DNA of 63,989 nucleotides, the filler included, from Dirinaria sp. TL-2023a (taxonomy: Eukaryota): assembly GCA_051941275.1 (NCBI GenBank). It is 3 parts of 3 records of this genome, joined end to end, with 100 filler letters (N's around TTAATTAATTAA, not from the genome) between each part and the next. Parts side by side here need not be neighbours in the genome. Positions count along the whole stretch, not along the records: positions 46,102 to 63,989 come from JAVEBF010000408.1; 2 more parts are not named here. One strand, 5' to 3'. The notes under the pieces were generated by a model that was not told the DNA's origin, searched no databases, and saw only the letters and a program-made list of their open reading frames with translations. Positions 24,529 through 58,257 of this stretch are shown piece after piece. Within the stretch, counting starts at the first letter, position 1; every line of letters begins with the position of its first letter. The translations under genes and the position numbers were made by a program.

Positions 24529-25909
24529 ATGGCATCACAAGTTGAAGAAATTCAGGTCCCCGAGACATTCACGAGCGGCAGCAAGGCGGCTGTGAATGGT
24601 CATGCCGAGAAGCTTTCAATTGCTGACGATACGGCAACCAACGGGTACGCGCAGAAGCAGACCTCCCCCGACCAGCATGAGAAGGTTCATCTTGGTCATT
24701 CGAAGCCCTTGCAGCCTAAGGGCGTCCTTAACCAGTTCAAATCTTTCGACGTGACCCCAACAATTGGGAAGGAGTACCCAGATGCTGACCTGGCCAAATG
24801 GCTTCGAGCGTCCAATTCCGACGAGCTTATAAGAGATCTGGCTATTATAGGTCAGTAATCACGCCCAGGCCGCATGAAACTCACACTTATCCACACAATG
24901 TAGTCTCTCAACGAGGAGTTGTTTTCTTCCGCGCTCAAAATGGCTTGGACGACGAGTTGCAGAAAGAACTGGCTCAACGTCTCGGAGAACTGAGTGGCAA
25001 GCCGAGCTCGTCCAAATTGCATATACATCCCGTCATAAACGCTGGCCGTGATCATGGTGGTAAAGATGACGAAATTAGTATAATTAGCTCTGTGCAGAAT
25101 AAAAGACTGTACAAAGGCTCAACCCTGGATCCGAGCATCAAGAGGCAGAGTGGGAAGGAAAGCTGGCATTCCGATATCACATTCGAGCCAGTGCCGAGTG
25201 ATTATGCCATCTTGCGGCTGACACAACTGCCTGGTACCGGCGGCGGTAAGAACAATTTTGCATACCTCTCTTGTTAGCACTATGGCCCAAAATTACTCGA
25301 GTAATTCAGGCTTTTCCTAACCTCTTTGCTGACGTGGCGGATGTGATAGATACCCTTTGGGCTTCCGGCTATGAGCTCTTTGACCGCATCTCTGCGCCCT
25401 ACCAGAGATTTCTGGAAAGCCTCAGTGCGACTTACGCGCAGCCTAAGTTCAACGAAGCGGCCCGGGACAACAATTTCAAGCTCTATTCCGCTCCTCGGGG
25501 CTCACCAGACAACATTGGTGATGACCTTACAGCGGTCCACCCAGTAGTACGTACTAACCCAGTTACGGGTTGGAAATCCATCTTCGCAGTCGGGCAGCAT
25601 GTGCAGAAGGTCAACGGCCTAGCGCCAGCAGAGTCCAGGGCGCTACTTGACTGGTTCGTAAGACTCATTGTTGAAAACCACGATTTGCAGGTGAGGCATA
25701 GGTGGCAAGGTCCAAATGATGTTGCCATTTGGGATAACAGGAGCGTCTATCATGTTGCCACGCCCGATTACGAGGGTCATGGCGAGAGATTGGGTCATCG
25801 AGCTGTCAGCCTTGGTGAAAAGCCTTACTTTGACCCGGACAGCAAATCTAGACGGCAGGCTCTAAGCGACTCTTTGGATTCGAAACCAGAAGCTGAGGTG
25901 CATTCATAA
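24529..25909 (+). CDS. TauD/TfdA-family Fe(II)/2-oxoglutarate dioxygenase (Jlp1-like sulfonate dioxygenase), 3 exons
   Basis: QRGVVFFRAQ; WHSDITFEPVPSDY (HxD); GGDTLWASGY; HPVVRTNPVTGWKS; AIWDNRSVYH. Confidence 0.92.
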
Positions 25910-42254: not shown

Positions 42255-45200
42255 ATGACACTTTCCAGCACGAGGCTGACAGAAAGCTCACGCGATGGCT
42301 TCGCCCGTGGGACTAAGGCCGAGAATGTAATCCGTCTCCTTAGGCTACGTGCATGAGGCGATCTTACTGATCTTCGTTACCTCAACCACAGCACCGATCT
42401 TTGGGCTGATGCGGTCAGCAAGCTGAGCGATGACGACAAGCGCGACATCAACTTTAGTATCCCAGATAAGCGGGGGATCGTAGAAGATCTACTCGGACTT
42501 GCTAAATCATCCGAACAGAAAGCGCTTAGCAAGCGCTGGAAATTCACTCGGAAGAATGGGCAAACGGTGGTTTTAAGGGATGTCTTTGCCAAGATCGTTC
42601 ATTGGGTGGATCTCTTCAAGCAGGTTGGAGACGCTGCTGTCCAGTATGACCCAGGGCATGCAGCACTCCCGTGGGCTGGGATTCGGTTTATTCTGCAGGT
42701 TAGTGCCAATATTTGATGTGATAAGGTGCAGCGTCTGAGACGTGCGGGCAGATTGCGATCAATGACGTCGACAAATATGCTTCCATAGTCGAAGGCCTCG
42801 CTCTGATAGCTGAGCTTATCTGCCGTTATGCAGTTGTCGAGAACCTTTACCCTCTTTCTGCAACTGAGACGAGTCATGAGATGGAGAGAGCTTTGGTCCA
42901 ACTGTATGCGGCTATCTTAATTTACCTTTCGAAAGCCAAATCATATTTCGATCAAGGCTCTGCAAGTCAGTACGCCTATGTAAAATGGTTGAACTCAAAC
43001 TAAAAGGAACAAATAGAGCGAGCCATGAAGAGCGTACTCGTGGATAAGTCAGCCTTCGAGTCATATCTCAACAACATTCATGACGCAAAAGAGGATGTCC
43101 ACAGTTGTATGAACCTCATTGGCAGACACGGTCAGTCCCATTACCGTCAAGTTCCCTATAGTATCCACAACGCTAAACCAAATCGGCAATGAAATCTACA
43201 AACTAACCTGGGTTAACTAGATCAAATCGAAAATCAAGAGAGGTTAGAGCTTTTGTTGAAGCGGATGAACGACCCTATAAGCCGTATGGATAGCGCTCTC
43301 AAAGATATTTAAGATAGTCTAGATGGTAAAGTATTGAAAAGACTGTTTGAAAGTCTAAACTAACGACATGCAGCATCGAGACGTACCGAGATTTTAGGCT
43401 GGTTGTCTCCAGAACCGTACATTCAACATCACAACCAGGTAAAAAAGGATGTATTACAGGGGACCGGAACATGGCTTCTTTCGGATCCGGTTTACATTAG
43501 CTGGAAAAAGGAAAGCGCCTCCTCTATCCTATGGCTCAGAGGGATCCAAGGTTCTGGGAATAGTAAGCTTGTGTAAGTGGACAAGACATAAATGTTTGAT
43601 AAATACAATTGTGCTGATGATTCCAGATCCATTGTAATTGAAGATGCTATCAGAGAATTCAACGCCGGACAGAGCCCTAGTCCGGCTTTCTTCTATTCGT
43701 CACGGAATTCGGCCGAACCAATGCGATCAGACCCCAACGCTATTCTTGCCAGTATTGCTAGACAATTGTCAAATCACCAACCAGGATCCCCACTTCTCAA
43801 GCCGACGCTTGAGCTTTACCTAAAAGAGGAAGCGCAAGAATTCGCCGCCGGGAAATTACAGATCGAGGAATGCTGTGAACTTATCATCCAGCTTACTGGG
43901 GAATACCCTCTGACTACCATAGTCATAGACGTTCTCGACGAATGCGATCCGGCAAAGCGAGATAAGCTATTAGATTCCTTGGAAAAGATTCTCGAGGAGG
44001 CTCCCAGCTTGGTAAAGATTTTTGTATCAAGTCGGAACGATCAAGACATCGTGTCTCAATTGAGACATTACCCAAACCTTGCTATTGATTCAGATAGAAA
44101 CGGTGTTGACATCGCAAAATTTGTCCGAACGGAGACAAACCGACTTATTAAGAAACAGAAACTTCTACAGTATAGCCAGAAGAAAGATGAATTAGCAGAA
44201 GTCGTAATCAAAGAGATAAGCAAGGGAGCTGCTGGCATGTAAGTTGTTGTTCTTCTTTTCGCGAACTCATTGAAATCTTATCCAAAGGCTGAATGTCTTT
44301 TTCTTAAAGAGTCGAAAATTAAAGGTCTTGATTCTCATTATTTTGGCACATAGTAAAGTGAGCTTGCGATTTGACACCATGACGGTGGGGTTAGAATATG
44401 CCAATCAATCGTTACTTACAATTATCATATTTAACTTGTTCGTCGTAATAGTTGTCACTGCCTGAATCAAGGCGTTAAGGTCTTCAGATCTAGAGTCCTA
44501 ATAACTATGTTCTCAGGTTCCGGTGGGCAAGTTTGCAACTGCAATATCTCTGCCCATGCAAGCTGGATGCCGACATTAAGGAGCGTCTTGGACGGAATCC
44601 ACCCGATTTAGAATCTCTTTACTCCGACATCTACGAGATGCTTTCGCGCGGCCCGGCCCAGTTTGGAACTGGCGTTTTCAGGAACACACTCAGCTGGTTG
44701 CTATGCGCTCAAGAGACCTTGGAGATACAGGAATTCTTTGCAGCGGTATCAATAGTTCCCGGTCACGGCTTCGAGCAGGTTTCAAAAGATCAAGTCCTCG
44801 ATCTTTGCAACAACTTCGTCATCTATGACACAGAGCTAGACACATTTCGCTTCACGTATCTATCCGTCAGAGAGTTTTTAGAGAAGCGAGATGAATATAG
44901 CCACGAACGTACAAATGCCTTGGCTGCCGAACTATGTCTATTGCAACTCCTATGCTCAGCCTCAAGCTCTATATCCAAGGAGTTCCTATCTAAGCACGAT
45001 CCGAACTTATGTGAGAAGCCGCCAGATACTAAGATGCTCACTATTTACCCCCATTTGTATTGGCCTGAACACTCTCGACTAGCCGCTCACAAAAGGAGAT
45101 GCGGTAGAACAAAAGCTCTTTTGCTATTTTTTCTCTCCAACGATACAGACTTTGCTTCTCCGTTCTCAGTGTGGAGACGTGAGATCGTGCACCAGAAGAG

Positions 45201-46001
45201 ATGGCATTTAGATGTTAGGGATTTTCGCCCGATGGATCGATTAGGCGACGCAAGGTCAGCGCTGCTCAGTGCGTGCGCTTTCGATTTCGCCGAATTTATA
45301 GAGAATCAGGGGAAAGGCTTCAGTCCCCAAATGGATCTTGTCACTAGCGCGGGTGATAGCATGTTATGTGTCGCCGTACGGCATTACAACTTCGATACAG
45401 TAAGAGCATTGCTAAAGCAAGAAGGCAACGAGAAAAACATCACAGAAAAAGTGCTTGCAGAGGCAGCAAAGAAACATGAAAGAAGTGATATTCTAGCTTT
45501 CCTTTTAAATAAAGGAGGCGGAGAGATTAAAATTACAGAAAAGGTTGTCAATGCTGCAGCAGAAAATTTATCCCGTGAGTGCTTGGCACTTCTCTTAACT
45601 TATAGAAAATGTGAGATCAAGGTTTCAGGAAAATTACTCGAGGTTGCGGCAAGGAATAGAAGCAATTTTGCCATCACACTGTTACTAGATGAACGAGGCG
45701 ATGAGAGCAAAATCACGGAAGCGGTTGTGGAAGCTGCAGCTGGAAATCGTTATACAGAGAGCGTCATGGCCCTGCTTTTAGCTCGTCGAGGCGAAGAAGT
45801 TCAGATCACAGAGAAGATACTTGTTGCAGCGGCATATTCAGCATATGGTTTCCGAATGATGAAACTGCTATTTGACCGAAGAGGCAGTGAGATTCAAATC
45901 ACAGAGGAGGTGCTCATAGCCGCAGCACAAGCCTGGGGAGGTCAAGACATCATCGGAATGCTGTTTGATCGACGAGGCAGTGAGATTCAAATCACAGAGA
46001 A
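42255..46001 (+). pseudogene. NLR-like gene: NWD/NACHT N-terminal helical domain, NACHT NTPase and C-terminal 31-aa ankyrin-like repeats; premature stop; truncated by the gap
   Basis: FKQVGDAAVQYDPGHAALPWAGIRFILQ; GTGTWLL; P-loop GIQGSGNSKL; Walker B IVIDVLDEC; KIFVSSR; GM/FRWASLQL; in-frame TAA at 43310-43312; start codon uncertain. Confidence 0.8.
45430..46001 (+). repeat. Tandem coding repeats of about 90-93 bp (xIxITExVxxAAA...LLxxRG)
   Basis: About six units; the last two share GAGGCAGTGAGATTCAAATCACAGAG exactly, 93 bp apart (45881 and 45974). Confidence 0.85.
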
Positions 46002-46101
46002 NNNNNNNNNNNNNNNNNNNNNNNNNNNNNNNNNNNNNNNNNNNNTTAATTAATTAANNNNNNNNNNNNNNNNNNNNNNNNNNNNNNNNNNNNNNNNNNN
46101 N
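46002..46101. other. Artificial contig spacer N44-TTAATTAATTAA-N44
   Basis: Same 100-nt structure as 22955-23054. Confidence 0.97.
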
Positions 46102-46556: not shown

Positions 46557-49500
46557 TTAGCAGCGATCCAGAAGCGTCGCATACTTAGTAAACTCCTCAT
46601 CGCCTTGCAACATCTCCAGCTCCTCGTCATTGGTTCCCATCCCAAGCTCCACCCCACCATCGTCTCTCATGGGATAAATAACCAGGAACCGAAAGCGCCT
46701 GTGCCCGCGTTCAACCTGTGGGCGCATGGCGGCGGGAGAGCCTCCGTCGGCGAAGAACGCATCCCCGAACGAAATCTCGCTCGTGGAGAACAGCATCAGA
46801 TTGGAAATCATGGCGTTCACCCCCGTGAGACCTGCGCAGGCGATGCTGAACCGGTTATGGTGATGGTCGGGCAAGGACTGCAGGAGGGTAAATGTGTCGT
46901 GGACAAGCGAGGGCGTGATGCGCGCGGCGGCCTCGCGGAGGAGATACGCGATGCTTCCGACGCTCGTTTTCGGCGAGCAGAGGGTCTCGACGGGCATATT
47001 GGGCCGATTCAGTATCAGCATGCTGCCCATGTACGATGATGGCAACAGAGAAGAGAAGTAGGGACGGCCGTCGACGGGTAATTCCAGGATCGACGTCTCG
47101 TGGGGTCCAAATGTTTCTCCGCGGAATTCCTTAGCCGCACGATATCGTGCCTTGATCGCGGAGCGCCAGAAGAAGGCTTGCACAATATCACTGATAGAGG
47201 TGATAGCCCCCTTGGCCTCTGGGTCGGCGAGGACTTCTTCTTTGAGCTCCTGCACCTTCTCGGGCGGAATCAAAAACAGGGTACTGCTCAGGCCATCCTG
47301 AGCAGGGGTGGGCGGCCATGCAAACTTCCGAGGGAAACTAGGTGCTGGAGGGAGAATTCTTTGCTTTGGAAGGCGGGATTTTCCGATCTCAGATGTGCCT
47401 TTTATATGATTTTCAAGGGGTTCCTCTGGGCGTTCAAATGGCAGAAAGCCCCATACAGCAGGATCTACCTCAGAAGCTGGTCGAGCATAGCCTTCTTGCT
47501 CGTACAGGATTTCTGGTAAGCTGTGATTGAAGCTCTCCGGGTCTAACCAGCTGCATGTCGCTGACACATCACCTTGAACATAACGGCAGCTTTCAGCCCA
47601 GACTTTAAGAGCGACCATAACACCAATGCCATCAAGGCAGGAGTGGTGGAAGTTTGTGGCGAGGATACAACCGCCTTTGACGAAGTTAGCTTGTGCGATC
47701 AAGATATCGGCGGGCAGCGGCGGAAATGGGTTCCCTCCAAGGACAAGTTCATCCATGAATACCGAGGGTACGAAGCCCGCATCTCGCAATTCCTCGAACG
47801 GCGGTAGAATATCAGACAGATCCTTATAGGCCAGCTGCCTTGGTACCGTCGGAAAGCCCGTACTATGGTCATTCGAGGAGGCCGAAGGTGGAAGAGGGGG
47901 AATGGTGAGGCGGAGGTCGCCGTTCCTATAGTCAATCTCTTGTTCCGAGCAATCCATCATTTTGCCGTCGAGGGCTGGAATTAGTTGCATTGTGCGACGG
48001 AGACCCTCTTGTAGATTCCCAAATGCTTGTTCGAAACTGATCCCTTTACGTAGAGCAAAGAAGAAGTTCAATCCCATGTAATGGTTGAAGTTCACGTAGT
48101 CAAATGGGTTCAATTTAAACGATAGGCGCGTCTTGTGTTTGTCTATCATCCTTCTCATCTTGGCCAAATCGTCGTTAGCAAGGTCGTCTGAAGCCGTTCC
48201 GTTTGTCTTTTTCGCCTCATCTGCCAACCGTGCAAGAGCTCCAGCGAACTTGGCGAGGGTCGGATTTGCGTAGAGGTGTCGAGGAGCAAGTTGATCCTGT
48301 AGCCCCATACCGGTTCGAATAATCTTGACAGCCCGCAAGACAAGAAGAGAGTCCAGCCCGAGAGTAAAAACGTCGATATCTGGCGGGGCTTCGCGAATCG
48401 AAGGCAATAAGGAGCCGAGTACGTGGCGGATCGATTCCAAAATTGATCCAACCGAACTCATATCAATTGTGACAGCATCCGAGTCCTCAACTCGTGAATT
48501 ATAGAAACGCTCAATATAGTCGGCATAAAGTTCTAGGGTGGCACGTCGCTTCACAGTTCCTTTATCTGTGCGGACAAAGGGCTTGTCTGGTTCCGCAAAC
48601 GTAATGTAGTCTCTTTGTAGCTGGTTTTTATGTAGAGATAGCGTATTCGCCGTTTCTACTGTTGACCATATGCTGTCAAAAAGCTCGTTGTCTCTCGATG
48701 ACGGATCTTTCAACTCGATGAGCAGGCCTGCCTGTGGCTTCGCAGTCCCGATCTGTGAGGCAATGCTGCTTCAGCTATAGGGCGCTACTTTCCTAGGGGG
48801 ACTTAGGCAGAGCTTGAATGGGCTTACTTACTACAAGGCAGCCTTCGACTGCGGGATGCGTTGTGACGAAAGCCTCAGTGTCTAAAGGTGATATTTTATA
48901 ACCGTTGGATAAGACAACTGTATCGTCGCTTCTTCCCTTGAAGGCCCAAAGATTTGGCTTAGTCGGATGCTTGAGATATAAGTCTTTAAGGTTGATGGAT
49001 TGCTTGGCTGGGAATGTGTGGAAAATGCCCTGAAACAAGGGCCAGTGCTTGGTGCGATGTACCCAATGCTCATATAGATCAGGCTCTACCTCTCTAAACT
49101 CGAAGCCGGAGAAAGGGTGAAAGGCGAACCAGAGCCAATCCTCTCTTTCCACCACCAGATTACCGATAAAAAGACCCTCTGTTGTACCTGTCAAGTTCAG
49201 AACTCTGATCACTTCATTTGCTTTGCCAGCAGCAATTGGACTGACGGGACCTTAAGAGCAAAAACGTTAGCGCCAGGATGGCGAGGGGAACAACTGTAGA
49301 AAGAACATGCGTACCGCCAGATGCACAGATAAATTTCGATGACCTGAACTTGGCCAAGACGTCCGGAGTCTCGCCCAGCTCATCGACAAGTGATGGAACC
49401 ATACTCCAGATATCGATTCTTCCATGGTTTGCGAGAGACTCCAAGAGGTTCATATTAGGTAGCACCCCGGCAGGTCCTAAGGTGCAGTGCAGGCCGAAGA

Positions 49501-50478
49501 GCGAGGGCAAAAGGATGTCCATAATAACACCGGCACCCTTGGAATTCCAAAGGTCATGCAATTAGCTCACAGCTCTCTGTTACAGTTCCCCCGCGGGGGG
49601 GGGGAATACGTACGTGACTCATGGGAAATGATGAGTATATTCTATCGCCTTCCTTCCAAAGTGATGTCCACGGAGCCAACCCATTGTCGCCCTCAGTAGG
49701 TGGAAGCAGCCGTACCGCATCCATGGTACCGATCAGACCATGAGTCCACGAAACAGGCTTCGGCACTCCCGTGGTGCCCGAGGTATGCAGGACGCAGAAT
49801 GGGTCTTGGATAGCTTCATCAAACGTCTTTTCATACGGGAAAGGCTCGGTAGATTCAGCATCGAGTAGTTCGTCGATTTCAGGGATATCTAGAAGTTTCA
49901 TAGGGCGTCGCTGCAGGAACTCTTCCACCAGAGGAAGACAGGGCTGCTCTCGGGGTTTGACCCAAATGTTGCATTTCGCCGCATCAAGGACTGCCAACGC
50001 CCCTTCACTGTTATTCTTGGGAGAAAGAAACAAGGCCTACCCGAAATTAAAATCAAGCGACATCGGCTTGCTGAGCCTCCGCTATTTGTTAACGTGGTAT
50101 TGAACAATTGTTACTTACAGCGTAACCAGCCTTGACACACGCGTAGGTCAACAGAATATGTCGAACATCATCTGAGTATAGTCAGTGAATGAGCTAGAAC
50201 GACAATATCGAGCTTGAAAGTTTTCTTTCCAACTCACGTGGACCAATATAGCCCACAGTCTGGATCAAGGTGGGTTTCCCAACTTGGTCACAGAGCCACC
50301 AGGCGGTTGTGTCAACCGCCTTCGCAAATTTGCGAGCAGATATATGGCGAAATCCATGGGAACGGTCGGAAAACGCCGCCACTGAGTATATAATGCGATC
50401 TGGCTCGGCAGAAGCCAAGCTGTCCAGGATCTGAGGAATCAGCCTCTTGCCATACTCCGTCGAACTTTTCACTGCCAT
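46557..50478 (-). CDS. NRPS-like enzyme: adenylation, thiolation and CoA-dependent transferase (condensation-like) domains; resembles the C-terminal part of CrmA-type ICS-NRPS hybrids
   Basis: Starts MAVKSSTEYGKRLIPQILD; A-domain VLHTSGTTGVPKP, SSFPMSH, GTTEG, DLY...FKGRSDD, RTDKGTVKR; T-domain DVFTLGLDSL; transferase FHHSCLDG (HxxxDG), LPVDGRPYF; the introns checked splice in frame. Confidence 0.9.
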
Positions 50479-51573
50479 TGTACCAATTCAGAGGAGGATG
50501 CTGGAACAACGACTGGTAAGTCAGTATGCTGCGGAGGGCAAATTCTAGAAGCAGGGAATTGTCAACAGTGGCTCGGATGATGCACCCATCTATATCACCA
50601 CGCTCAAGACACAAGGACACACGAGGGTGCAGGGGTATGACATCGTTCCGCCCATTACCAATCCATAATTTCGGTAACATAATGCAACTGTCAATCAGAG
50701 ACGCTGGGTTCGACGGGACGAGGTCGCCTGAGTTCCTCTGCGAGTTTTCGGCCGCGTTGGAAACTTCCAGTGCGGTATCCAGCAAGTCCAATGTAAGCGG
50801 CCCGGTTTGATCCTGCCATGCAAATAGCGGAATAATCGTCCGCCATGATGAAGATCCTCTACGAACGTGCGTTACGTGTAACATCGTGAGTACGTGAATC
50901 GGAATGTAGTAGCCGCCTCTTCAAGCCTAGTGTTGAGACTAAATGATTGAAAACTTGCGCATCTGAAGAGATCCCGCGCTTCAACATTAGCGTGCGGAGA
51001 TTCTAACGGGGATATCACAGGTATTTCGGTCACAAAGTAGAGTAATGGGATTGACCACTGCCTAATCATCCCTCTGTCCGACCTTCGACTGTAAGCGCTG
51101 AGGTTAGATGACGGCGGCGGCGGACAATGGAAGAAGCTGATCAGGCGAATTGCGAGTGGTCCTGTGGATCCGTGGGCACCCGCACTTCCAAAGCCGCAGG
51201 CCACTTCCATACGGCTGTCAGTAGTATCAGCATTACGAGAAACACATAGCAATGGCTTCAGAATCTGGTCAAAGATGTTCGTCAGACCCACTCCATTATC
51301 AAGTGGATGAAGTCATACCCCTGATCCCAGGTAATTGTATTACTCTTACGTTGTTCTGAGGCCCTTTGCAAACCCATGAATGGCTCATCCCGGAATGTTT
51401 AGCCGTATTGCCTTGTTGAGGAAGATGGCGGTGGAACGGATTCTTAGCCACCTCATGTTAAGTAGCTGGCTTTCACTCCGCTCGTCCTTTGCAAAGTTTT
51501 TACTTTTCGACTCACAGTATTTGATACTTGATCGTCTTCCGACTTCAAATTTATCCAATCCAACATCTCCATC
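50479..51573. promoter_or_regulatory. Divergent (bidirectional) promoter region between the NRPS-like gene and the ICS-ABC gene
   Basis: Head-to-head ATGs at 50478 (-) and 51574 (+), 1.1 kb apart; no credible ORF between them. Confidence 0.6.
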
Positions 51574-54500
51574 ATGCAGTCTGTTCCTCAACCCACAAAC
51601 ACGACCAATGGGCTTGCTTTGGATGACGGGAAGTCCTCCCATGCCTCGCGTGCTACGACAGAGATGACAGAGACTTCGAACAAGGTCTTGGATATAATCT
51701 TCGAATACGCCCTCAATAAGTTCAATGACTATATCGAAAAATTCGCGGCGGGCAGGCCAAGGTTCTTGTCAGTCATCGACCGGTTTGTCACAGCGCAGAC
51801 ACGGGTGGAAATGTGCCTCCCAGCATTCCCGTTTAAGTCGGCAAACAAGGTTGAGAAGGTCTTTGGCATTCTACCCGATAAAGCCGAGGAATTGGCCCTC
51901 GAACGGTTGAATACCATGTGCATACGCATTGAAGATGTCTACCCACCTGGCGCCAAACTCACGATCATATCGGACGGCCTTGTTTACAATGGTTCGTCCA
52001 GCACCAATCAAGCCATCTCTCTGAGTATGAGCCGCTTGCTAATGTAGACTTTTGATGTTGACAGATCTATTGGGCATTCCAGATTGCGATACGTGGGCCT
52101 ACGGAGAGGCTCTACGCAAAATGGCTGTCCAGAAGGAGTTCACCCATATTGATTTTTCCAGGCTTAGAGACCTAGTCAGTTTCCCTCTGCCAGAGAGGCT
52201 AGAAGAGATAACATACGTCGCCAATGCCACTAATTTTCGCCGATTCCTCTTCAACAAATACGGCGATGATAATCTCGACATCGATCACGAAATCGCCACG
52301 AATCTCGATACACAGTTGACTTATCTAGGATATCGAAGATTCCTGGAGTCAGACTTGCGATATATTTTCCCACTCGGCGGAGATAGATCGAACAAACGCT
52401 ATAAGAATGACGTGAAGTACCTCGCCAAGCAGATGCTAATCAGAGGATATGTAAGTGTACTTCAATCGCTCCGTGATTACTCTAATGAACCTTCCCAAAC
52501 AGGCTTTCGCGGGGGCGGTCAAATTTTCCTTTCCGAAGCATCTACGTCTTTCCATCCATCAGTCTATGGGCGAGCACAAGGTATCCATGAGTCTGCTTAA
52601 CACCAAAACCGGATTTACGACCCCGTGGCATTGTAGCGTCGCTTTGATGGCAGATGGCGAGTGGATAAGCGGCACAATGGCTGGTTTTAAGAAAGACGCT
52701 ATGCTGGAAATCGTGTACGAGAATGGCCGGCCCAGCTATTTTCAGGAGAAGACGCGCGAGCTCCGTGAGTCTATTGACGGCAAGAAATCAGCAAGCAATC
52801 AAAAGCCTTCAAAAGCTATTAATGGGCTCTCTACCGGCTTCGCCTCCGGCGAGGATCCCTCTATCGAAAAGTCCGTGGAAAGGGCGGAAGAGAAGCTCCA
52901 AGACGAAAAGTCTACGCCAGCGAGTTCAATTTTAAATGATAAAAAAGAGATAAATATCACTGAGCTTGCAAGGACACTGTCATACCATGGAGTTAGGAAT
53001 GAGAAGGGAGAGCTCATCAACCCTTTCTTTGGAACTGAGCATTCTTTGCTGGACCCAAAGTCTAGCAAGTTCAGCTCAAAGGCATGGCTCGAAACACTTG
53101 TGAGCATTACGTCAAGGGATCCTGAACGATATCCCAAGAGAGTCGCTGGTGTAGCTTACAAAAACCTATCAGCTCATGGATTTGGGGAGCCGACGGACTA
53201 TCAGAAGACTTTTGGAAATTACCCCTTCAAAACACTCAACTTAGCCAAAAGGCTATTTGGGAAGGGAAGGAAGACCAGAATTCAGATATTGAAGGACTTC
53301 GATGGCTTAGTTAAAAGTGGAGAGATGCTTATGGTACTGGGAAGGCCAGGAAGGCAAGTGATGCTTTGGAGAAACAGCGAAAACATTGCTAACAAGCGCA
53401 GTGGCTGTTCGACACTCTTGAAGATCATCTCTGGAGAGACTGATGGTTTCCATGTCGCAGACCACTCTTATCTAAATTATCAAGGTATTCCGAAGGAGAC
53501 TATGCATAAGGATTTCAGAGGAGAGTGCATTTATCAGGCTGAGACCGATGTGCACTTTCCTCAGTTGACCGTGGGTCAGACTCTTGACTTCGCCGCTCGC
53601 GCTAGGGTATGTTGGATGAAGAATACTGGAGTGGATACTTAACGGACTGACTCTTGAAAGGCTCCCCGCAACCGCATGCCCGATGTCAGTCGAGATGTAG
53701 GTGCTCATAAACCATCTTCTCCATGGGAAACACTATGGAAATTGCCATTGTACTAAATCCTTCCCCAGATGTATGCGGAACATCTACGAGATGTCGTCAT
53801 GACAACTTTCGGTCTTAGCCATACGGGCAATACAATGGTCTGAGGCCTCCATGTATATTTTATTAGCTCCGACTGATATGCATATAAGGTTGGCAATGAC
53901 TTCGTCCGAGGAGTTTCCGGTGGCGAAAGAAAACGTGTCAGTATTGCAGAAGCGTATGTGAGCCCCCAGATTGGCATGTTCGTGGTCTTATTACTGATAT
54001 GTATTCTGCTTAGTGCTATTGCGGGCAGTCCCCTGCAGTGTTGGGATAATAGTACACGTGGACTTGACAGTGCCACTGCTCTTGAATTCGTGCGAACACT
54101 CAGGATCTCCACAGCACTGACTAAATCGACTGTGATCGTAACTCTCTATCAGGCTTCACAGTCTATCTATGATGTCAGTCTGACAAGTCGAACAATATTA
54201 CTGTACTAACGATCGAAGGTCTTTGATAAAGTTGCTGTACTGTACGAAGGTCAACAAATCTACTTTGGAGATATCCATGCAGCAAAACAATTCTTCATCG
54301 ACCTAGGCTTCGAATGCCCACCACGACAAACAACGGCCGACTTCCTCACATCCTTGACTAATCCAACAGAACGGAAAGTTCGCAAAGGCTTCGAAGGCAA
54401 GACTCCCTCTACACCAGGTGATTTTGCTTCTGTGTGGCGAAAAAGCGAGGATCGAGCACGTCTAGTCCAGGAGATTGAGGAGTTCGATGGCCAGTACCCC

Positions 54501-57500
54501 ATCGGCGGACCATCACTCGATCAGTTCAAGCACTCGCGAAAAGCTTTGCAAGCAAGATCACAGTGGGTTTCTGTTGATACCGTCGACCTGCGCCTATACT
54601 GACTCAAAGCAGGCGTATACAATCGCCGTACAATCTTTCGGTCCCAATGCAGGTTAGACTATGCGTCCGACGAGGATACCAGAGGCTGCGAGGAGATATG
54701 GCTTTGCTCATCATAAGCGTCATGTTCAACTCAGTAATGGCACTTGTTATTGGCAGCGTCTTCTACGATTTGCCGGACAACACTATTTCTCTTTACAGTC
54801 GTGGCGCTCTACTCTTCTTCGCGATCTTATTGGCAGCTTTCGCTAGTGCATTGGAGGTTCGTTCAAGATTAGAGCCCATAAAGCATCACTAACACAGTTA
54901 GATCTTAACTTTATACGCACAACGTCCGATCGTAGAGAAGCAGTCGAAGTATGCCTTTTACCATCCTTTTGCTGAAGCAATTGGCAAGTCGAGATTTCAC
55001 GATTTACTTGCTGTAGCTGACGTATCGAAGCATCGATGATCTGCGACTTGCCCAACAAGATCCTTACTGCTATTGGATTCAATCTTACTCTTTATTTCAT
55101 GACTAACCTACGGCGCACACCTGGTCATTTCTTTGTGTTCCTGCTCTTCTCATTCACATGTACACTCACGATGTCAATGTACTTCCGTTGTATTGCTGCA
55201 TTATCTCGGACGTTCCCACAGGTAAAGCCATCTTTCTACCTATTGTGCTTCCATGCTGACGACTCAGGCTATGGCACCAGCCTCTATCTTCAGTCTAGCT
55301 CTGGTTATTTACACAGGCTTTACAATCCCTACTAAGGACATGCACCCGTGGTTTCGATGGATTAATTACCTAAACCCTGTCGGCTATGCTTTCGAAGCAC
55401 TTATGATCAATGAAGTGCGAAAATCACATACGGATGTATTTGCCAAGTCTAACATAAGTCCAGTTTCACGACCGTACAATACCTTGTACCAAATATGTTC
55501 CACAAGGTAGGGGCTATGGCGACGTTTCTCAAAATGAGAAGATCTGTGCAGTCACCGGAGCTGCTGCTGGCGCAGACTTCGTTAATGGAGATACTTACCT
55601 GGCCGTCAATTTCGGTTATGTTGCTGATCATCTGTGGAGGTATATGTCCCCTTTTAAATGAATTAAAAAAACAATGGAAATTGGACTCTAAGAACGGACA
55701 GCTGTACTAATAGTTATCCTAGAAACCTTGGTATCATGATTGGTTTGATGACCTTCGGCTGCTTTGTCTATCTTATAGCAACAGAGTACATCTCAGCAAA
55801 GAAGTCCAAGGGCGAAGTCCTGCTATTCCGACGAGGTAGAGTACCACGTCTACAGCCAAAGCTTGACGAGGAAGCCAACGCCGATGACAGAGTCAACACA
55901 GAAACGCTAGCTCAAGAGAAGACGGCGCATGATGCCCCTGCCAGTATCCAGAAGCAGACTAAAGTTTTCCATTGGGATAGCGTCAATTACGATATCAAAA
56001 TCAAGGGCAAACCGCGAAGACTCTTGGATGATGTTGACGGCTGGATTATACCTGGAACACTGACAGCTTTGATAGTATGTTCTCCACAGGACAGTGGAAT
56101 ACAAGATTGCTAACAAGCATTTTTAGGGTATTACAGGAGCCGGCAAGACCACTTTACTTGATGTACTAGCCAATCGTCTAACGATGGGTGTCGTTAGCGG
56201 TGAAATTCTTGTCGATGGCCGAAGTCGAGATTCAGGTTTCCAACGCAAAACTGGATACGTTCAGCAGCAAGATTTGCATCTAGCTACATCTACCGTTCGA
56301 GAGGCCTTAAGCTTCAGCGCCATTCTACGACAGCCGGAAACTACTTCTCATGCTGAGAAGGTTGCATATGTTGATGAAGTCATTAAGGTTCTGGAGATGG
56401 AGGCATATGCTGATGCTGTGGTTGGGGTACCAGGAGAAGGTGCGCATCTAGACCAAGCTTACCCGCAGGGTATGGAATATTATATGCTAATGATTGCCAA
56501 GGTCTGAATGTTGAACAACGAAAGCGCCTGACTATTGGGGTTGAACTCGCTGCCAAACCTGCTTTATTACTCTTCCTTGACGAACCTACTTCGGGTTAGT
56601 AAGCATTCTATGTCCAAGCAGCTGATTTTTCTAGCATCAGATCATAGAGCAGGGGGACGCCTCACTAAGCCATGATACAGGTCTTGACAGTCAGACTGCT
56701 TGGTCCATCTGCGCCCTTCTCCGAAAGCTCGCCGACAACGGCCAAGCTATTCTCTGCACCATCCACCAGCCCTCAGCCATTCTGTTTCAACAATTCGATC
56801 GTTTGCTCTTCCTTGCTATGGGAGGCAAGACTCTCTACTTTGGTGAGATCGGTGATGATTCCAAGACTCTCACCAGCTACTTTGAACGTAATGGAGCTAG
56901 GCCGTGTGGTAAAGACGAAAACCCCGCCGAGTGGGTGCTTGAAATTACTGGCGCAGGTCCTGGCTCGGAGAGCACCCAGGACTGGCCAGCCGTCTGGAAG
57001 GATTCAAAAGAACATGAAGCTGTCAAAGCCGAACTTGCTCGTATGAAAGAAACGTTGTTTCAGCAGCCAGTATCCGTCAATGATTCAGACGCACTTCGGC
57101 CATTTGCGGTCCATTTTGGTTCGCAGCTCTGGGTTGTACTTATGCGAGTCTTCCAGCAATACTGGCGTACTCCCTCATACCTCTACTCCAAAGTCGCTCT
57201 CTGTCTCTTTAGTGTAAGTGCAAACCTATCTAAAAGTATTGCAGAACGTGTTTGACTCTAGCTCAGGCCATGTTCATCGGATTCTCCTTCTGGAAAACAC
57301 CCAACTCGCTTCAAGGACTACAAAACCAACTCTTCGCTGTCTTCATGCTTCTCACAATATTCTCCAACTTTTGCCAACAAATTATGCCTAACTTCGTGAC
57401 TCAACGCGCCCTCTACGAAGTCCGAGAACGTCCATCCAAAACCTATTCCTGGCAAGTGTTCATTCTGTCAAACATCATTATCGAGATCCTGTGGAACTCT

Positions 57501-58257
57501 GTCATGGCTGTGCTCGTTTTTGTAGGCTGGTACTATCCCATCGGCCTGCGCCAGAATGCCGTGGAGGCAGATCAGCTAGCCGAAAGAGGAGCGCTAATAT
57601 TCTTGTTTATTTTGACGTTCTTGATCTTCGCTGGGACGTTTACGAATATGGTGATTGCGGGGATTGAGACTGCTGAGGCGGCAGGAAATATTACGAACCT
57701 CTTATTCTCGCTTTCATTGATCTTCTGCGGGTATGCCACGTCATCCCCCATAACTCCTTTCAGCACCCTTTAATGTTTTCTGCTCCCCCCCGAGCACCAT
57801 TCTCCGAGGCGTCTATACTAACTCAGAAACCCCTAGCGTCCTAGCAACTCCCACCGCTCTCCCCGGCTTCTGGATATTCATGTACCGCATCTCCCCCTTC
57901 ACTTACCTAGTATCCGGCATGTTATCCGTGGGCCTCGCCAACGCGCACATCTCTTGCTCCAGTGAAGAGTTCTTGCATTTCTCACCCCCCTCGCCCTCAA
58001 ACTGCTCCACTTACCTCGCGCCCTACGTGGAAGTGCTTGGCGGCTACCTCTTACCTGAAAGCATGAACTCGACCACGGAGTGTGTATTCTGTAGCGGCAG
58101 CGAGACGAATATTTTTTTGAAGGGTGTTAGTGCGGATTATAGGGATCGATGGAGGAATTTTGGGATCTTTTTGGTTTATGTGATTTTCAATATCACGGCG
58201 GCTGTCGGGCTTTATTGGCTTGCGAGAGTGCCGAAGGGGAAGAGAGGGGGCCAGTGA
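51574..58257 (+). CDS. Apparent fusion protein: N-terminal isocyanide synthase (Dit1/PvcA family) plus full-length PDR/ABCG ABC exporter (NBD-TMD-NBD-TMD)
   Basis: ICS motifs [42 protein letters not shown] (exons 51574-51991, 52065-52450, 52503-). The same open frame continues into PDR N-terminus [13 protein letters not shown], Walker [37 protein letters not shown]2 [43 protein letters not shown] and MYRISPFTY, ending at stop 58257. Confidence 0.85.

What the first reader, a model, noticed from the sequence alone, without database searches (positions are those of the whole stretch)
51574..58257. Isocyanide synthase fused in frame to a full-length PDR/ABCG exporter
Seen: after the last ICS motif (TTPWHC...GRPSYFQEK, about 52750) the frame stays open through a linker of roughly 80 aa. 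It runs into the conserved PDR N-terminal segment (NPFFG...[13 protein letters not shown]) and NBD1, within ORF 52455-53642. There is no stop, no obvious intron and no in-frame Met between the ICS end and [11 protein letters not shown] of NBD1, so the transporter has no start codon of its own. Both halves look intact. Known: Dit1/PvcA enzymes make isocyanides from an amino acid and ribulose-5-phosphate; described fungal ICS fusions are to TauD-like dioxygenase or NRPS-like modules (e.g. A. fumigatus CrmA). I know of no described ICS-ABC fusion. Inference: a protein of roughly 1,800-1,900 aa that tethers synthesis of a reactive, metal-chelating isocyanide to the cytosolic face of its own exporter, for channelling or self-protection.
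Basis: partly seen in the sequence, partly recalled or inferred. Interest (0 to 1): 0.92.

Follow-up and report, generated by a model that had tools for sequence, protein, structure and literature searches.

The report
Isocyanide synthase–ABC exporter fusion, already known
A lichen fungus really does encode one long protein that joins an isocyanide-making enzyme to a drug-pump-type exporter, but this kind of fusion is widespread in filamentous fungi and was first described in 2007, so it is a new member of a known kind.

Summary
A single gene (51574-58257, + strand, 20 exons, 1849 aa) joins a complete DIT1_PvcA isocyanide synthase (ICS) through a variable linker of about 70-85 aa to a complete full-size PDR/ABCG transporter. 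There is no stop, intron or Met between the two parts. RNA contigs from a lichen metatranscriptome show 13 of my 19 predicted introns. They read from the ICS into the linker without splicing.

The novelty claim fails. Of the 120 listed database relatives, 28 carry the same ICS+PDR combination, across five ascomycete classes. A citing paper describes MgAtr7 of Mycosphaerella graminicola (Zwiers et al. 2007) as an ABC transporter with a dityrosine/pyoverdine biosynthetic domain. Won et al. 2022 mention CrmA homologues with an added transporter domain.

New here is the context. The divergent neighbour gene (46557-50478, - strand) is the adenylation-thiolation-transferase remainder of a CrmA-type ICS-NRPS-like enzyme, so the locus is CrmA plus a PDR pump with the ICS attached to the pump instead. 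Likely role: synthesis and export of a crm-type (valine-isocyanide-derived) metabolite. Channelling is untested. Interest is low.

The parts
51574..58257 (+). ICS-PDR fusion gene with 20 exons: 51574-51991, 52065-52450, 52503-53353, 53402-53606, 53661-53696, 53769-53837, 53889-53953, 54014-54173, 54219-54562, 54613-54856, 54902-54983, 55031-55221, 55268-55414, 55464-55639, 55723-56074, 56127-56439, 56502-56594, 56681-57213, 57267-57730, 57837-58257. It encodes 1849 aa.
   Evidence: The gene is collinear by tblastn with the fused protein P0012 over aa 64-1861. Splice sites were chosen by homology. RNA contigs show 13 of the 19 introns as joints.
51661..52758 (+). Isocyanide synthase (DIT1_PvcA) domain, spread over exons 1-3 and ending at ...GRPSYFQEK.
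   Evidence: Pfam PF05141 matches in three exon pieces that cover profile positions 1-71, 71-201 and 200-270 of 273 (116, 112 and 71 bits against a cut-off of 26.4). PvcA 3e59 gives E 4.8e-30 over residues 68-356. 93 of 94 conserved columns are kept.
52759..52961 (+). Variable Ser/Lys/Glu-rich linker with no stop, Met or intron.
   Evidence: length and sequence vary among 14 fused proteins but the frame is always kept; an RNA contig reads through 52503-52790 and carries a 15-base in-frame insertion behind 52775 (DGKKS repeated); the first ~75 aa resemble the post-ICS linker of a CrmA-type protein.
52962..53219 (+). ABC_trans_N, the conserved N-terminal segment of PDR transporters.
   Evidence: PF14510, E 4.9e-23, profile 1-88 of 89, at ORF residues 170-255. 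Homology to the unfused PDR P0027 begins at 52953.
53220..58257 (+). PDR transporter body: NBD1 (Walker A GRPGSGCS at aa 548), TMD1, PDR_CDR loop, NBD2 (Walker [11 protein letters not shown] at aa 1243) and TMD2.
   Evidence: Pfam ABC_tran, ABC2_membrane and PDR_CDR match on the exon ORFs. Motifs and 11 hydrophobic segments are. The part is 84.7% identical over about 1415 aa to P0027. CDR1 9iuk gives E 6e-118.
53354..53401 (+). An in-frame, stop-free GC-AG intron inside the Walker A region of NBD1. The public 893-aa model retains it.
   Evidence: Removing it restores GRPGSGCSTLL, as in all relatives. P0002 retains it. No RNA joint is listed for it.
46557..50478 (-). Divergently transcribed NRPS-like gene: adenylation, thiolation and TRI-like/transferase domains. 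It is the non-ICS part of a CrmA-type enzyme.
   Evidence: Pfam AMP-binding, AMP-binding_C_3, PP-binding, TRI-like_N and Transferase. The CrmA-type protein P0074 aa 382-1560 maps to 50466-46560 on the - strand at 63-87% identity, while its aa 2-390 map to 51661-52979 on the + strand.
50479..51573 (.). Intergenic region of 1095 bp shared by the two divergent genes. It is a presumed bidirectional promoter.
   Evidence: It lies between the two start codons. Its promoter function is inferred, not tested.

Best explanation
This is one expressed gene for an 1849-aa protein. A cytosolic crm-type isocyanide synthase is tethered by a flexible, fast-evolving linker to the N-terminus of a full-size PDR (ABCG) exporter. 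It is the lichen-fungus member of the MgAtr7-type 'biosynthetic moiety plus ABC transporter' family. It forms a two-gene core with the divergently transcribed adenylation-thiolation-transferase gene. Together the two genes carry exactly the modules of a CrmA-type ICS-NRPS-like enzyme plus its neighbouring PDR pump, with the ICS attached to the pump instead of the NRPS-like enzyme.

Likely mechanism (inferred): the ICS domain converts an amino acid, probably valine as for CrmA, into an alpha-isocyano acid at the inner face of the membrane. The A-T-transferase enzyme activates it and esterifies it to an alcohol such as a polyol. The PDR part exports the isocyanide and/or its ester.

Shown here: the reading frame, the gene model, expression and splicing, the domain content, conservation of the fusion and of the gene pair. 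Inferred: the substrate, the product, the direction of transport, any channelling, and a role in metal homeostasis.
For: The frame is continuous and both domains lie in one ORF. The full model is collinear with a fused orthologue. RNA contigs of three runs from one sample show 13 of 19 predicted introns. One 524-base contig joins ICS exon 2 to exon 3 and runs 40 bases past the ICS end, and further contigs tile 52776-53334. No joint is listed inside 52503-53605. Of 31 coding differences between those contigs and the window, 18 are synonymous and 13 are not; in the linker the split is 1 and 3. Of 120 listed relatives, 28 have ICS plus PDR families and 13 of these are full-length. Pfam architecture was confirmed on 3 fused proteins. 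The window keeps 93 of 94 conserved ICS columns and 139 of 139 conserved PDR columns, and has all NBD motifs. The neighbour gene is A-T-transferase. The CrmA-type protein P0074 maps in two pieces to the two divergent genes. The same gene pair is seen in all 5 fused loci where neighbours could be seen: the window; metagenome locus L002, where the pair is also divergent; and Aulographum, F. langsethiae and Zasmidium, by adjacent accession numbers in Table S4 of Nickles et al.. For F. langsethiae the listing was cut before any DIT1_PvcA row of the ABC protein, so its fusion rests on P0017. Prior descriptions appear in passages seen.
Against: No single RNA contig spans from the ICS to NBD1, and contigs cannot prove a single transcript. 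The 5' 450 bases of the gene had no RNA cover. RNA contig depth is higher over the 3' third, which the tool says cannot be used to rank parts of a gene, so an additional internal transcript is not excluded. The valine substrate and the polyol ester product are extrapolated from A. fumigatus CrmA. I did not compare the window directly with that protein. The other crm genes (crmB-type acetyltransferase, crmC/D metal transporters) were not found in the window. A citing paper reports an iron-related phenotype for MgAtr7 but none for the F. graminearum orthologue, so the physiological role is unsettled.
Confidence: 0.85

Rival explanations
1. The fusion is an assembly or annotation artefact. On this view two neighbouring genes (an ICS and a PDR pump) were joined by a misassembly, an indel or a missed intron or stop.
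For: The window appears to come from a metagenome-assembled genome: the 100%-identical database protein is labelled 'MAG'. Its public gene model is poor, with 893 aa, two retained introns and a premature end. No single RNA contig spans the whole junction.
Against: RNA contigs from a related strain (95-99% alike) read ICS exon 2, exon 3 and the linker, and tile on to NBD1 without a joint. Their only indel in the linker is 15 bases and in frame. The same architecture occurs in 27 other listed proteins and in metagenome loci L001 and L002. The PDR part has no Met of its own before Walker A.
Confidence: 0.03
2. The fusion is real, and the tether serves direct channelling or self-protection. The ICS would hand a reactive, metal-binding isocyanide straight to its own pump, and the free isocyano acid would be the exported product.
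For: The ICS sits at the cytosolic N-terminus of the pump in every member. Small amounts of free valine isocyanide are reported from the crm pathway (passage in PMC9381783). In relatives the ICS is always attached either to the next enzyme or to the pump, which fits selection for keeping it close to a partner.
Against: The linker is long, variable and poorly conserved, which gives no sign of a fixed docking geometry. A dedicated A-T-transferase enzyme is conserved next to the fusion. That suggests at least part of the ICS product leaves for a soluble enzyme before export. No experiment bears on channelling.
Confidence: 0.3
3. The protein mainly serves iron homeostasis or siderophore-related transport, as reported for MgAtr7, rather than secretion of a copper-linked crm-type isocyanide.
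For: PMC6788720 (passage) summarises Zwiers et al. [quoted passage not shown]
Against: The same paper reports that the F. graminearum orthologue mutant (FGSG_03735) was not iron-sensitive. The ICS is 80.7% identical to a CrmA-type ICS, and the neighbour gene is the CrmA A-T-transferase part. CrmA pathways are reported as copper-starvation responsive (abstract and passages). No siderophore NRPS or siderophore transporter family was found in the window.
Confidence: 0.15

Closest known systems
MgAtr7 of Mycosphaerella graminicola (Zymoseptoria tritici), Zwiers, Roohparvar & de Waard 2007, Fungal Genet Biol 44:853 (paper not held; seen only as cited in PMC6788720 and PMC6071951)
   Same: It is a full-size PDR/ABCG transporter that carries an N-terminal dityrosine/pyoverdine (DIT1_PvcA) biosynthetic domain in one polypeptide. 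The Z. tritici fused protein P0031 (1785 aa) has the same Pfam architecture and aligns over 100% of the junction piece.
   Different: The window protein comes from a lichen-forming fungus. It has a linker about 27 aa longer, and it sits on other branches of both the ICS and PDR trees than the Mycosphaerellales proteins. I could not check that P0031 is MgAtr7 itself. The 2007 description predates the recognition of this domain family as fungal isocyanide synthases (Lim et al. 2018).
CrmA-type ICS-NRPS-like enzymes and the crm cluster (Lim et al. 2018, PMC5974471; Won et al. 2022, PMC9381783)
   Same: The ICS domain is of the same type, 80.7% identical to the CrmA-type protein P0074. The same A, T and transferase domains are present. 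About 75 aa of the post-ICS linker are recognisably alike.
   Different: The ICS is not on the same polypeptide as A-T-transferase. It is on the opposite strand, fused to the pump. No crmB-, crmC- or crmD-like genes are in the window.
Pdr5 / Cdr1 / BcatrD-type fungal PDR (ABCG) multidrug exporters
   Same: It has the (NBD-TMD)2 order, ABC_trans_N, the PDR_CDR loop, a degenerate Walker A1 with Cys, and a degenerate signature 2. CDR1 and Pdr5 structures match at E 1e-109 to 6e-118.
   Different: It carries a 420-aa enzyme-plus-linker extension. It belongs to a PDR clade linked to ICS genes, separate (100* support) from the BcatrD-like clade.
Unfused PDR beside a CrmA-type gene: Cenococcum cluster 561 in Table S4 of Nickles et al. 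Also the PDR proteins P0027 (Cenococcum), P0028 (Lojkania) and P0034 (Amniculicola). For the last two species the CrmA-type protein and the PDR show the same longest-contig length. I did not show that P0027 is the PDR of cluster 561.
   Same: These are the closest relatives of the window's PDR part (84.7% identity to P0027; sister clade at 97*). In cluster 561 the same three modules sit in one locus.
   Different: There the ICS is joined to the NRPS-like enzyme, and the pump starts about 4 residues before the point where the window's pump homology begins.

Membership tests
Isocyanide synthase, DIT1_PvcA (PF05141) | Full-length match to the family profile above the curated cut-off | tested here: met
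   three exon pieces cover profile positions 1-71, 71-201 and 200-270 of 273, with 116.2, 111.8 and 71 bits against a cut-off of 26.4.
Isocyanide synthase, DIT1_PvcA (PF05141) | Sequence similarity to solved isonitrile synthases across the whole fold | tested here: met
   PvcA 3e59 gives E 4.8e-30 (residues 68-356 against 50-325 of 330). 9dhm and 9dh4 give E about 6e-28 (residues 66-347 against 44-312 of 315).
Isocyanide synthase, DIT1_PvcA (PF05141) | Family-conserved residues retained | tested here: met
   93 of 94 columns that are at least 95% conserved in 44 relatives are kept. The one difference is Ile to Val. The catalytic residues themselves were not identified.
Isocyanide synthase, DIT1_PvcA (PF05141) | Forms an isocyanide from an amino acid | not testable with these tools
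   This needs an enzyme assay or heterologous expression.
Fungal PDR (ABCG full-size) transporter | Reverse (NBD-TMD)2 architecture with ABC_trans_N, two ABC_tran, two ABC2_membrane and PDR_CDR | tested here: met
   One search shows these families on the exon ORFs in that order. One search shows collinearity with P0012 along its full length. One search shows the architecture of three orthologues.
Fungal PDR (ABCG full-size) transporter | Asymmetric nucleotide-binding sites: degenerate Walker A1 and signature 2, canonical Walker A2, Walker B2 and signature 1 (feature list recalled) | tested here: met
   GRPGSGCS (aa 548), VSGGERKR (664), WDNSTRGLD (687), [10 protein letters not shown] (1243), LNVEQRKR (1348), [13 protein letters not shown] (1368), CTIHQPS (1403).
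Fungal PDR (ABCG full-size) transporter | Twelve transmembrane helices | tested here: inconclusive
   a crude hydropathy scan found 11 segments (5 + 6). No dedicated predictor was available.
MgAtr7-type ICS-PDR fusion | DIT1_PvcA domain and PDR transporter in one open reading frame and one transcript | tested here: met
   The frame is shown. RNA contigs run from the ICS into the linker and tile to NBD1. A single-molecule transcript is not proven.
MgAtr7-type ICS-PDR fusion | Homology of both halves to the Z. tritici fused protein | tested here: met
   P0031 covers 100% of the junction piece. Its ICS is 67% and its PDR 62% identical to the window's.
MgAtr7-type ICS-PDR fusion | Role in iron homeostasis | not testable with these tools
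   Only a citing sentence was seen. The same paper found the F. graminearum orthologue mutant not iron-sensitive.
crm (CrmA) isocyanide cluster | ICS, adenylation, thiolation and transferase domains on one polypeptide | tested here: not met
   P0074 aa 2-390 map to the + strand gene and aa 382-1560 to the - strand gene. The modules are all present but split over two divergent genes.
crm (CrmA) isocyanide cluster | crmB (alcohol acetyltransferase) and crmC/crmD (metal transporter) neighbours | tested here: not met
   no AATase, Ctr or siderophore-transporter families among the window ORFs that were scanned. Won et al. also report little conservation of these genes outside Aspergillus.
crm (CrmA) isocyanide cluster | Induction by copper starvation | not testable with these tools
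   A recalled Mac1/MacA-like motif gave 12 matches in the window against 19.15 expected, and none in 50479-51573. This says nothing either way.

The most novel reading that the evidence does not exclude
The ICS module, with about 75 aa of linker, may be a cassette that has moved between its two neighbours more than once. In some lineages it heads the NRPS-like enzyme (CrmA type, with a separate PDR pump next door). In others it heads the pump (MgAtr7 type, with a separate A-T-transferase next door). In the window the seam is sharp: CrmA-type homology ends at 52979 and pump homology starts at 52953. A single inversion of 'promoter + ICS + linker' between head-to-head genes would convert one state into the other while keeping the bidirectional promoter. 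Both trees need several changes of state: at least 3 forced by well-supported branches on the ICS tree and at least 4 on the PDR tree. If this is real, selection keeps the isocyanide synthase covalently tied to some partner, either the next enzyme or the exporter. That would be indirect evidence that the free enzyme or its product must be confined. The two large ICS surveys that describe only three ICS architectures would also have missed a fourth, common one.
Probability: 0.3. Interest if true: 0.5.

Novelty: new member of a known kind. Interest (0 to 1): 0.22.

Why it matters
The fusion itself is not news. It has been in print since 2007, and it is present in many annotated genomes and in supplementary tables of the main ICS surveys. 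This window adds four modest things.

1. A corrected full-length gene model (1849 aa, against the public 893-aa model) for a lichen-forming fungus, with RNA support.
2. Evidence that the family is common in lichenised Teloschistales and Caliciales. Ten of the 28 fused hits carry names that I recall as lichen genera of these orders.
3. The explicit link between the 2007 'dityrosine/pyoverdine-ABC' transporter class and the later crm isocyanide pathway. The locus equals CrmA plus its pump, with the ICS moved onto the pump.
4. A correction to the statement that all fungal ICS proteins fall into three architectures (passage).

For natural-product mining, ICS-PDR proteins should be treated as a fourth backbone class whose partner enzyme is the adjacent A-T-transferase.

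Tried and rejected
- **Possible donor in the linker.** GTGAGT at 52765 looked like a splice donor, but an RNA contig reads through it unspliced.
- **Separate transporter start.** An ATG at 52822 lies in another frame and no homology supports it.
- **Copper-responsive promoter motif (recalled consensus).** It gave 12 matches in the window against 19.15 expected by chance, and none in the intergenic region. No conclusion.
- **Census with 50%-identity representatives.** The fused family collapses into a few, mostly fragmentary, representatives, so this gave no useful count. It did show that the nearest ICS relatives outside the fusion are 1616-1659-aa proteins. By length these are presumably ICS-NRPS-like, but I did not check their domains.
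- **Careful ICS tree.** It did not finish in 288 s, so the quick tree was used. The backbone is poorly resolved and I ran no AU test.
- **Gene orientation where the ICS is on the NRPS-like enzyme.** Metagenome locus L004 carries a PDR that is 93-100% identical to P0027 in its best segments. Its flanks hold only 2 ORFs of 90 aa or more (none in the 10 kb upstream) and no CrmA-type hit, so the inversion model could not be tested.
- No whole genome is held for this window. Earlier findings of this scan gave nothing.
- **RNA and DNA cover.** RNA contigs did not cover 51514-52027, so exon 1, intron 1 and the start codon are unverified. Six introns were not seen as joints. DNA run X4 laid no contigs. 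None of this counts as evidence of absence.
- **Papers not held.** The 2007 MgAtr7 paper and the journal version of Nickles et al. are not held. Lojkania is absent from the supplement of Nickles et al..
- **Not attempted.** Structure prediction, complex prediction and fold search. No claim of physical binding is made.
Full report
**Observation**

The stop-to-stop ORF 52455-53642 on the + strand contains the C-terminal end of the DIT1_PvcA isocyanide synthase profile (positions 200-270 of 273). It also contains the whole ABC_trans_N profile (1-88 of 89) in the same frame. The translation of 52503-53351 has no stop, and it has no Met between GRPSYFQEK and [11 protein letters not shown] (scripted check).

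**Gene model**

A full-length fused relative (P0012, 1880 aa) aligns collinearly by tblastn from its residue 64 to 1861 along 51667-58245. Choosing splice sites by homology gives 20 exons and 19 introns, with the ATG at 51574, the stop at 58255-58257 and 1849 aa. One intron was corrected by hand, to 53697-53768.

Two introns are GC-AG (53354-53401 and 54984-55030). The 100%-identical public protein (P0002, labelled 'MAG: hypothetical protein ... [Dirinaria sp. TL-2023a]') also fuses the two parts. It is only 893 aa, however, because it retains two in-frame introns and misses the donor at 54563.

**Integrity**

- ICS: three exon pieces cover the whole Pfam profile. PvcA and two other solved isonitrile synthases match residues 66-356. 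The window keeps 93 of 94 columns that are at least 95% conserved among 44 relatives.
- PDR: the window keeps 139 of 139 such columns among 110 relatives. The typical asymmetric PDR motifs are all present. CDR1 and Pdr5 structures match at E 1e-109 to 6e-118. A crude hydropathy scan found 11 hydrophobic segments, not 12.

**RNA**

One search found RNA-seq runs of a lichen metatranscriptome that hold about a third of the gene's sampled words. Three of these runs (X1-X3), all from one sample and one study, were laid; their assembled contigs are 95-99% alike to the window.

- Fifteen joints are listed. Thirteen coincide with my predicted introns, including intron 2 inside the ICS and one GC-AG intron.
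- Two listed joints (56583>56664 and 57544>57698) have CT..AC ends and do not fit the model.
- A 524-base contig runs 52230-52450 | 52503-52790, that is from ICS exon 2 through the end of the ICS and 40 bases into the linker.
- Further contigs (one beginning at 52776, then 52969-53211 and 53087-53334) tile on to NBD1. No joint is listed within 52503-53605.
- That strain carries a 15-base insertion behind 52775. It is in frame and repeats DGKKS.
- Of 31 listed coding differences, 18 are synonymous. Within the linker the split is 1 synonymous and 3 not.

The limits are these. Contigs cannot prove one molecule. No contig spans the whole junction. The first ~450 bases of the gene had no cover. The DNA run laid nothing.

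**Relatives**

I searched with the junction piece (283 aa) among longer proteins. The search gave 404 hits at E <= 1e-5, of which 120 are listed. They break down as follows:

| Domain content | Listed hits |
|---|---|
| PF05141 (ICS) with ABC/PDR families | 28, of which 13 are full-length (1771-1880 aa) |
| ICS with NRPS-like domains | 4 |
| ICS only | 4 |
| PDR without ICS | 84 |

The fused proteins carry these names:

- Lichen fungi: Gyalolechia, Ikaeria, cf. Caloplaca, Variospora, Calogaya, Polycauliona, Squamulea
- Dothideomycetes: Clohesyomyces, Aulographum, Zasmidium, Pseudocercospora, Zymoseptoria, Stagonosporopsis
- Eurotiomycetes: Phialophora, Cladophialophora
- Leotiomycetes: Hyaloscypha
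- Sordariomycetes: Fusarium, Purpureocillium

The class assignments are my own knowledge. Pfam confirmed the full architecture on three of the fused proteins. In an alignment of 14 fused proteins the linker varies in length and sequence, but the frame is always kept. Two metagenome loci (L001, L002) are fused as well.

**Neighbourhood**

The gene on the opposite strand (46557-50478) has AMP-binding, AMP-binding_C_3, PP-binding, TRI-like_N and Transferase domains. The CrmA-type ICS-NRPS-like protein P0074 (architecture) maps onto the window in two pieces. Residues 2-390 (ICS plus linker) map to 51661-52979 on the + strand. Residues 382-1560 (A-T-transferase) map to 50466-46560 on the - strand.

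The unfused pump P0027 begins to align at 52953. The window protein is therefore 'CrmA residues 1-~385' joined almost seamlessly to 'pump residue ~5 onward'. The linker itself resembles the post-ICS linker of P0074.

The pair 'A-T(-transferase) gene next to ICS-PDR gene' recurs in every fused locus where I could see neighbours:

- L002, where the pair is also divergent
- Aulographum, by adjacent accession numbers in Table S4 of Nickles et al.
- F. langsethiae, likewise. The listing was cut before any DIT1_PvcA row of the ABC protein, so its fusion rests on P0017.
- Zasmidium, likewise, with no Transferase hit listed

In Cenococcum the same table shows the alternative state, a pump without ICS next to an AMP-binding + DIT1_PvcA protein. 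No other crm-type genes were found in the window. The flanks hold an NLR-like gene and a Fung_rhodopsin-domain gene.

**Trees**

The window's ICS is 80.7% identical to the CrmA-type P0074, as close as to the fused lichen proteins (78-84%) and closer than to the other fused proteins (60-77%). Its pump part is 84.7% identical to the unfused P0027, against 79% to the nearest full-length fused protein.

- Quick maximum-likelihood ICS tree, 45 rows: fused proteins are not one clade, and well-supported branches force at least 3 changes of state.
- Quick LG+G4 PDR tree, 36 rows: well-supported branches force at least 4 changes. The lichen fused clade is sister (97*) to the unfused Lojkania/Cenococcum/Corynespora/Amniculicola/Clonostachys clade.

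Several caveats apply. These are quick trees without rooting, and the careful ICS search did not finish. Some 'unfused' or short rows may be truncated gene models, and I chose the rows by hand from those retrieved.

**Literature**

- A search for 'isocyanide synthase' + 'ABC transporter' + 'fusion' found 3 papers, judged from the listing alone to be off topic.
- Lim et al. 2018 describe three eukaryotic ICS architectures (passage).
- Nickles et al. 2023 state that all ICS enzymes matched one of those three (passage). Their own Table S4 nevertheless lists fused proteins.
- Won et al. [quoted passage not shown] Their Supplementary Data 1 lists proteins named as ABC transporters from Z. tritici and F. 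venenatum, and the Aulographum and Zasmidium proteins.
- A search for 'MgAtr7' found 8 papers. PMC6788720 says MgAtr7 harbours 'a dityrosine/pyoverdine biosynthetic domain' and affects siderophore production and iron homeostasis. It also says the F. graminearum orthologue mutant was not iron-sensitive (passage).
[quoted passage not shown]'. The 2007 paper itself is not held.
- From memory only: its abstract reports cDNA support for the fusion and a Fusarium homologue with micro-synteny.

**Verdict**

The most likely function is synthesis and export of a crm-type isocyanide metabolite made together with the neighbouring A-T-transferase enzyme. The substrate, the product, any channelling and the metal link are inferences.

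The modestly new points are the corrected model, the lichen occurrence, and the reading of the locus as CrmA-plus-pump with the ICS cassette moved onto the pump. That move could have happened by a local inversion, which I could not test.

Noticed in passing
window 51574-54602 (public model P0002): The public 893-aa model of this gene retains two in-frame introns (53354-53401 and 53954-54013). It ends early because the donor at 54563 was missed. The remaining ~950 aa of the transporter are not part of it.
   Followed up: yes
window 56583-56664 and 57544-57698: RNA contigs of X1-X3 show two joints with CT..AC ends, skipping 80 and 153 bases inside exons of the pump. CT..AC ends are what a GT..AG intron looks like on the opposite strand. 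They could be antisense spliced transcripts, another organism's sequence or assembly artefacts. The shorter side is only 26-85 bases.
   Followed up: no
window 52775/52776: The RNA-sample strain has a 15-base in-frame tandem duplication (DGKKS) in the linker. Three of the four linker substitutions are non-synonymous, so the linker evolves fast but stays in frame.
   Followed up: partly
window 53354-53401 and 54984-55030: This one gene has two GC-AG introns with GCAAGT donors. The second is supported by an RNA joint (54982>55030, which reads GC..AG when shifted by one base).
   Followed up: partly
window 24789-25906 (+): A TauD/TfdA-family dioxygenase gene lies about 26 kb upstream of the ICS. 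TauD is the usual ICS fusion partner, but here it is separated by unrelated genes (phosphatidylserine decarboxylase, PAP2, an NLR-like gene) and is probably not part of the cluster.
   Followed up: no
window 42357-46050 (+): An NLR-like gene (NACHT_N, NPHP3_N NTPase, ankyrin repeats, four DUF7104 repeats) lies directly beside the NRPS-like gene.
   Followed up: no
Table S4 of Nickles et al. (PMC10153163 supplement), cluster 465_Fusarium_langsethiae: One protein (KPA37845.1) is listed with DIT1_PvcA, HpcH_HpaI, methyltransferase and TauD domains. This is another ICS architecture outside the 'three variations' of the main text.
   Followed up: no
L004 1-9985 and 15388-20396: A metagenome locus carries a pump that is 93-100% identical to the Cenococcum PDR P0027 in its best segments. 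It has almost no ORFs of 90 aa or more in 15 kb of flanks, which suggests a gene-poor or repeat-rich setting.
   Followed up: partly
protein P0030: A 914-aa fused ICS-PDR protein is labelled as from Quercus suber (cork oak). It groups with Mycosphaerellales fungi in the ICS tree, so it is probably fungal contamination in a plant assembly.
   Followed up: partly
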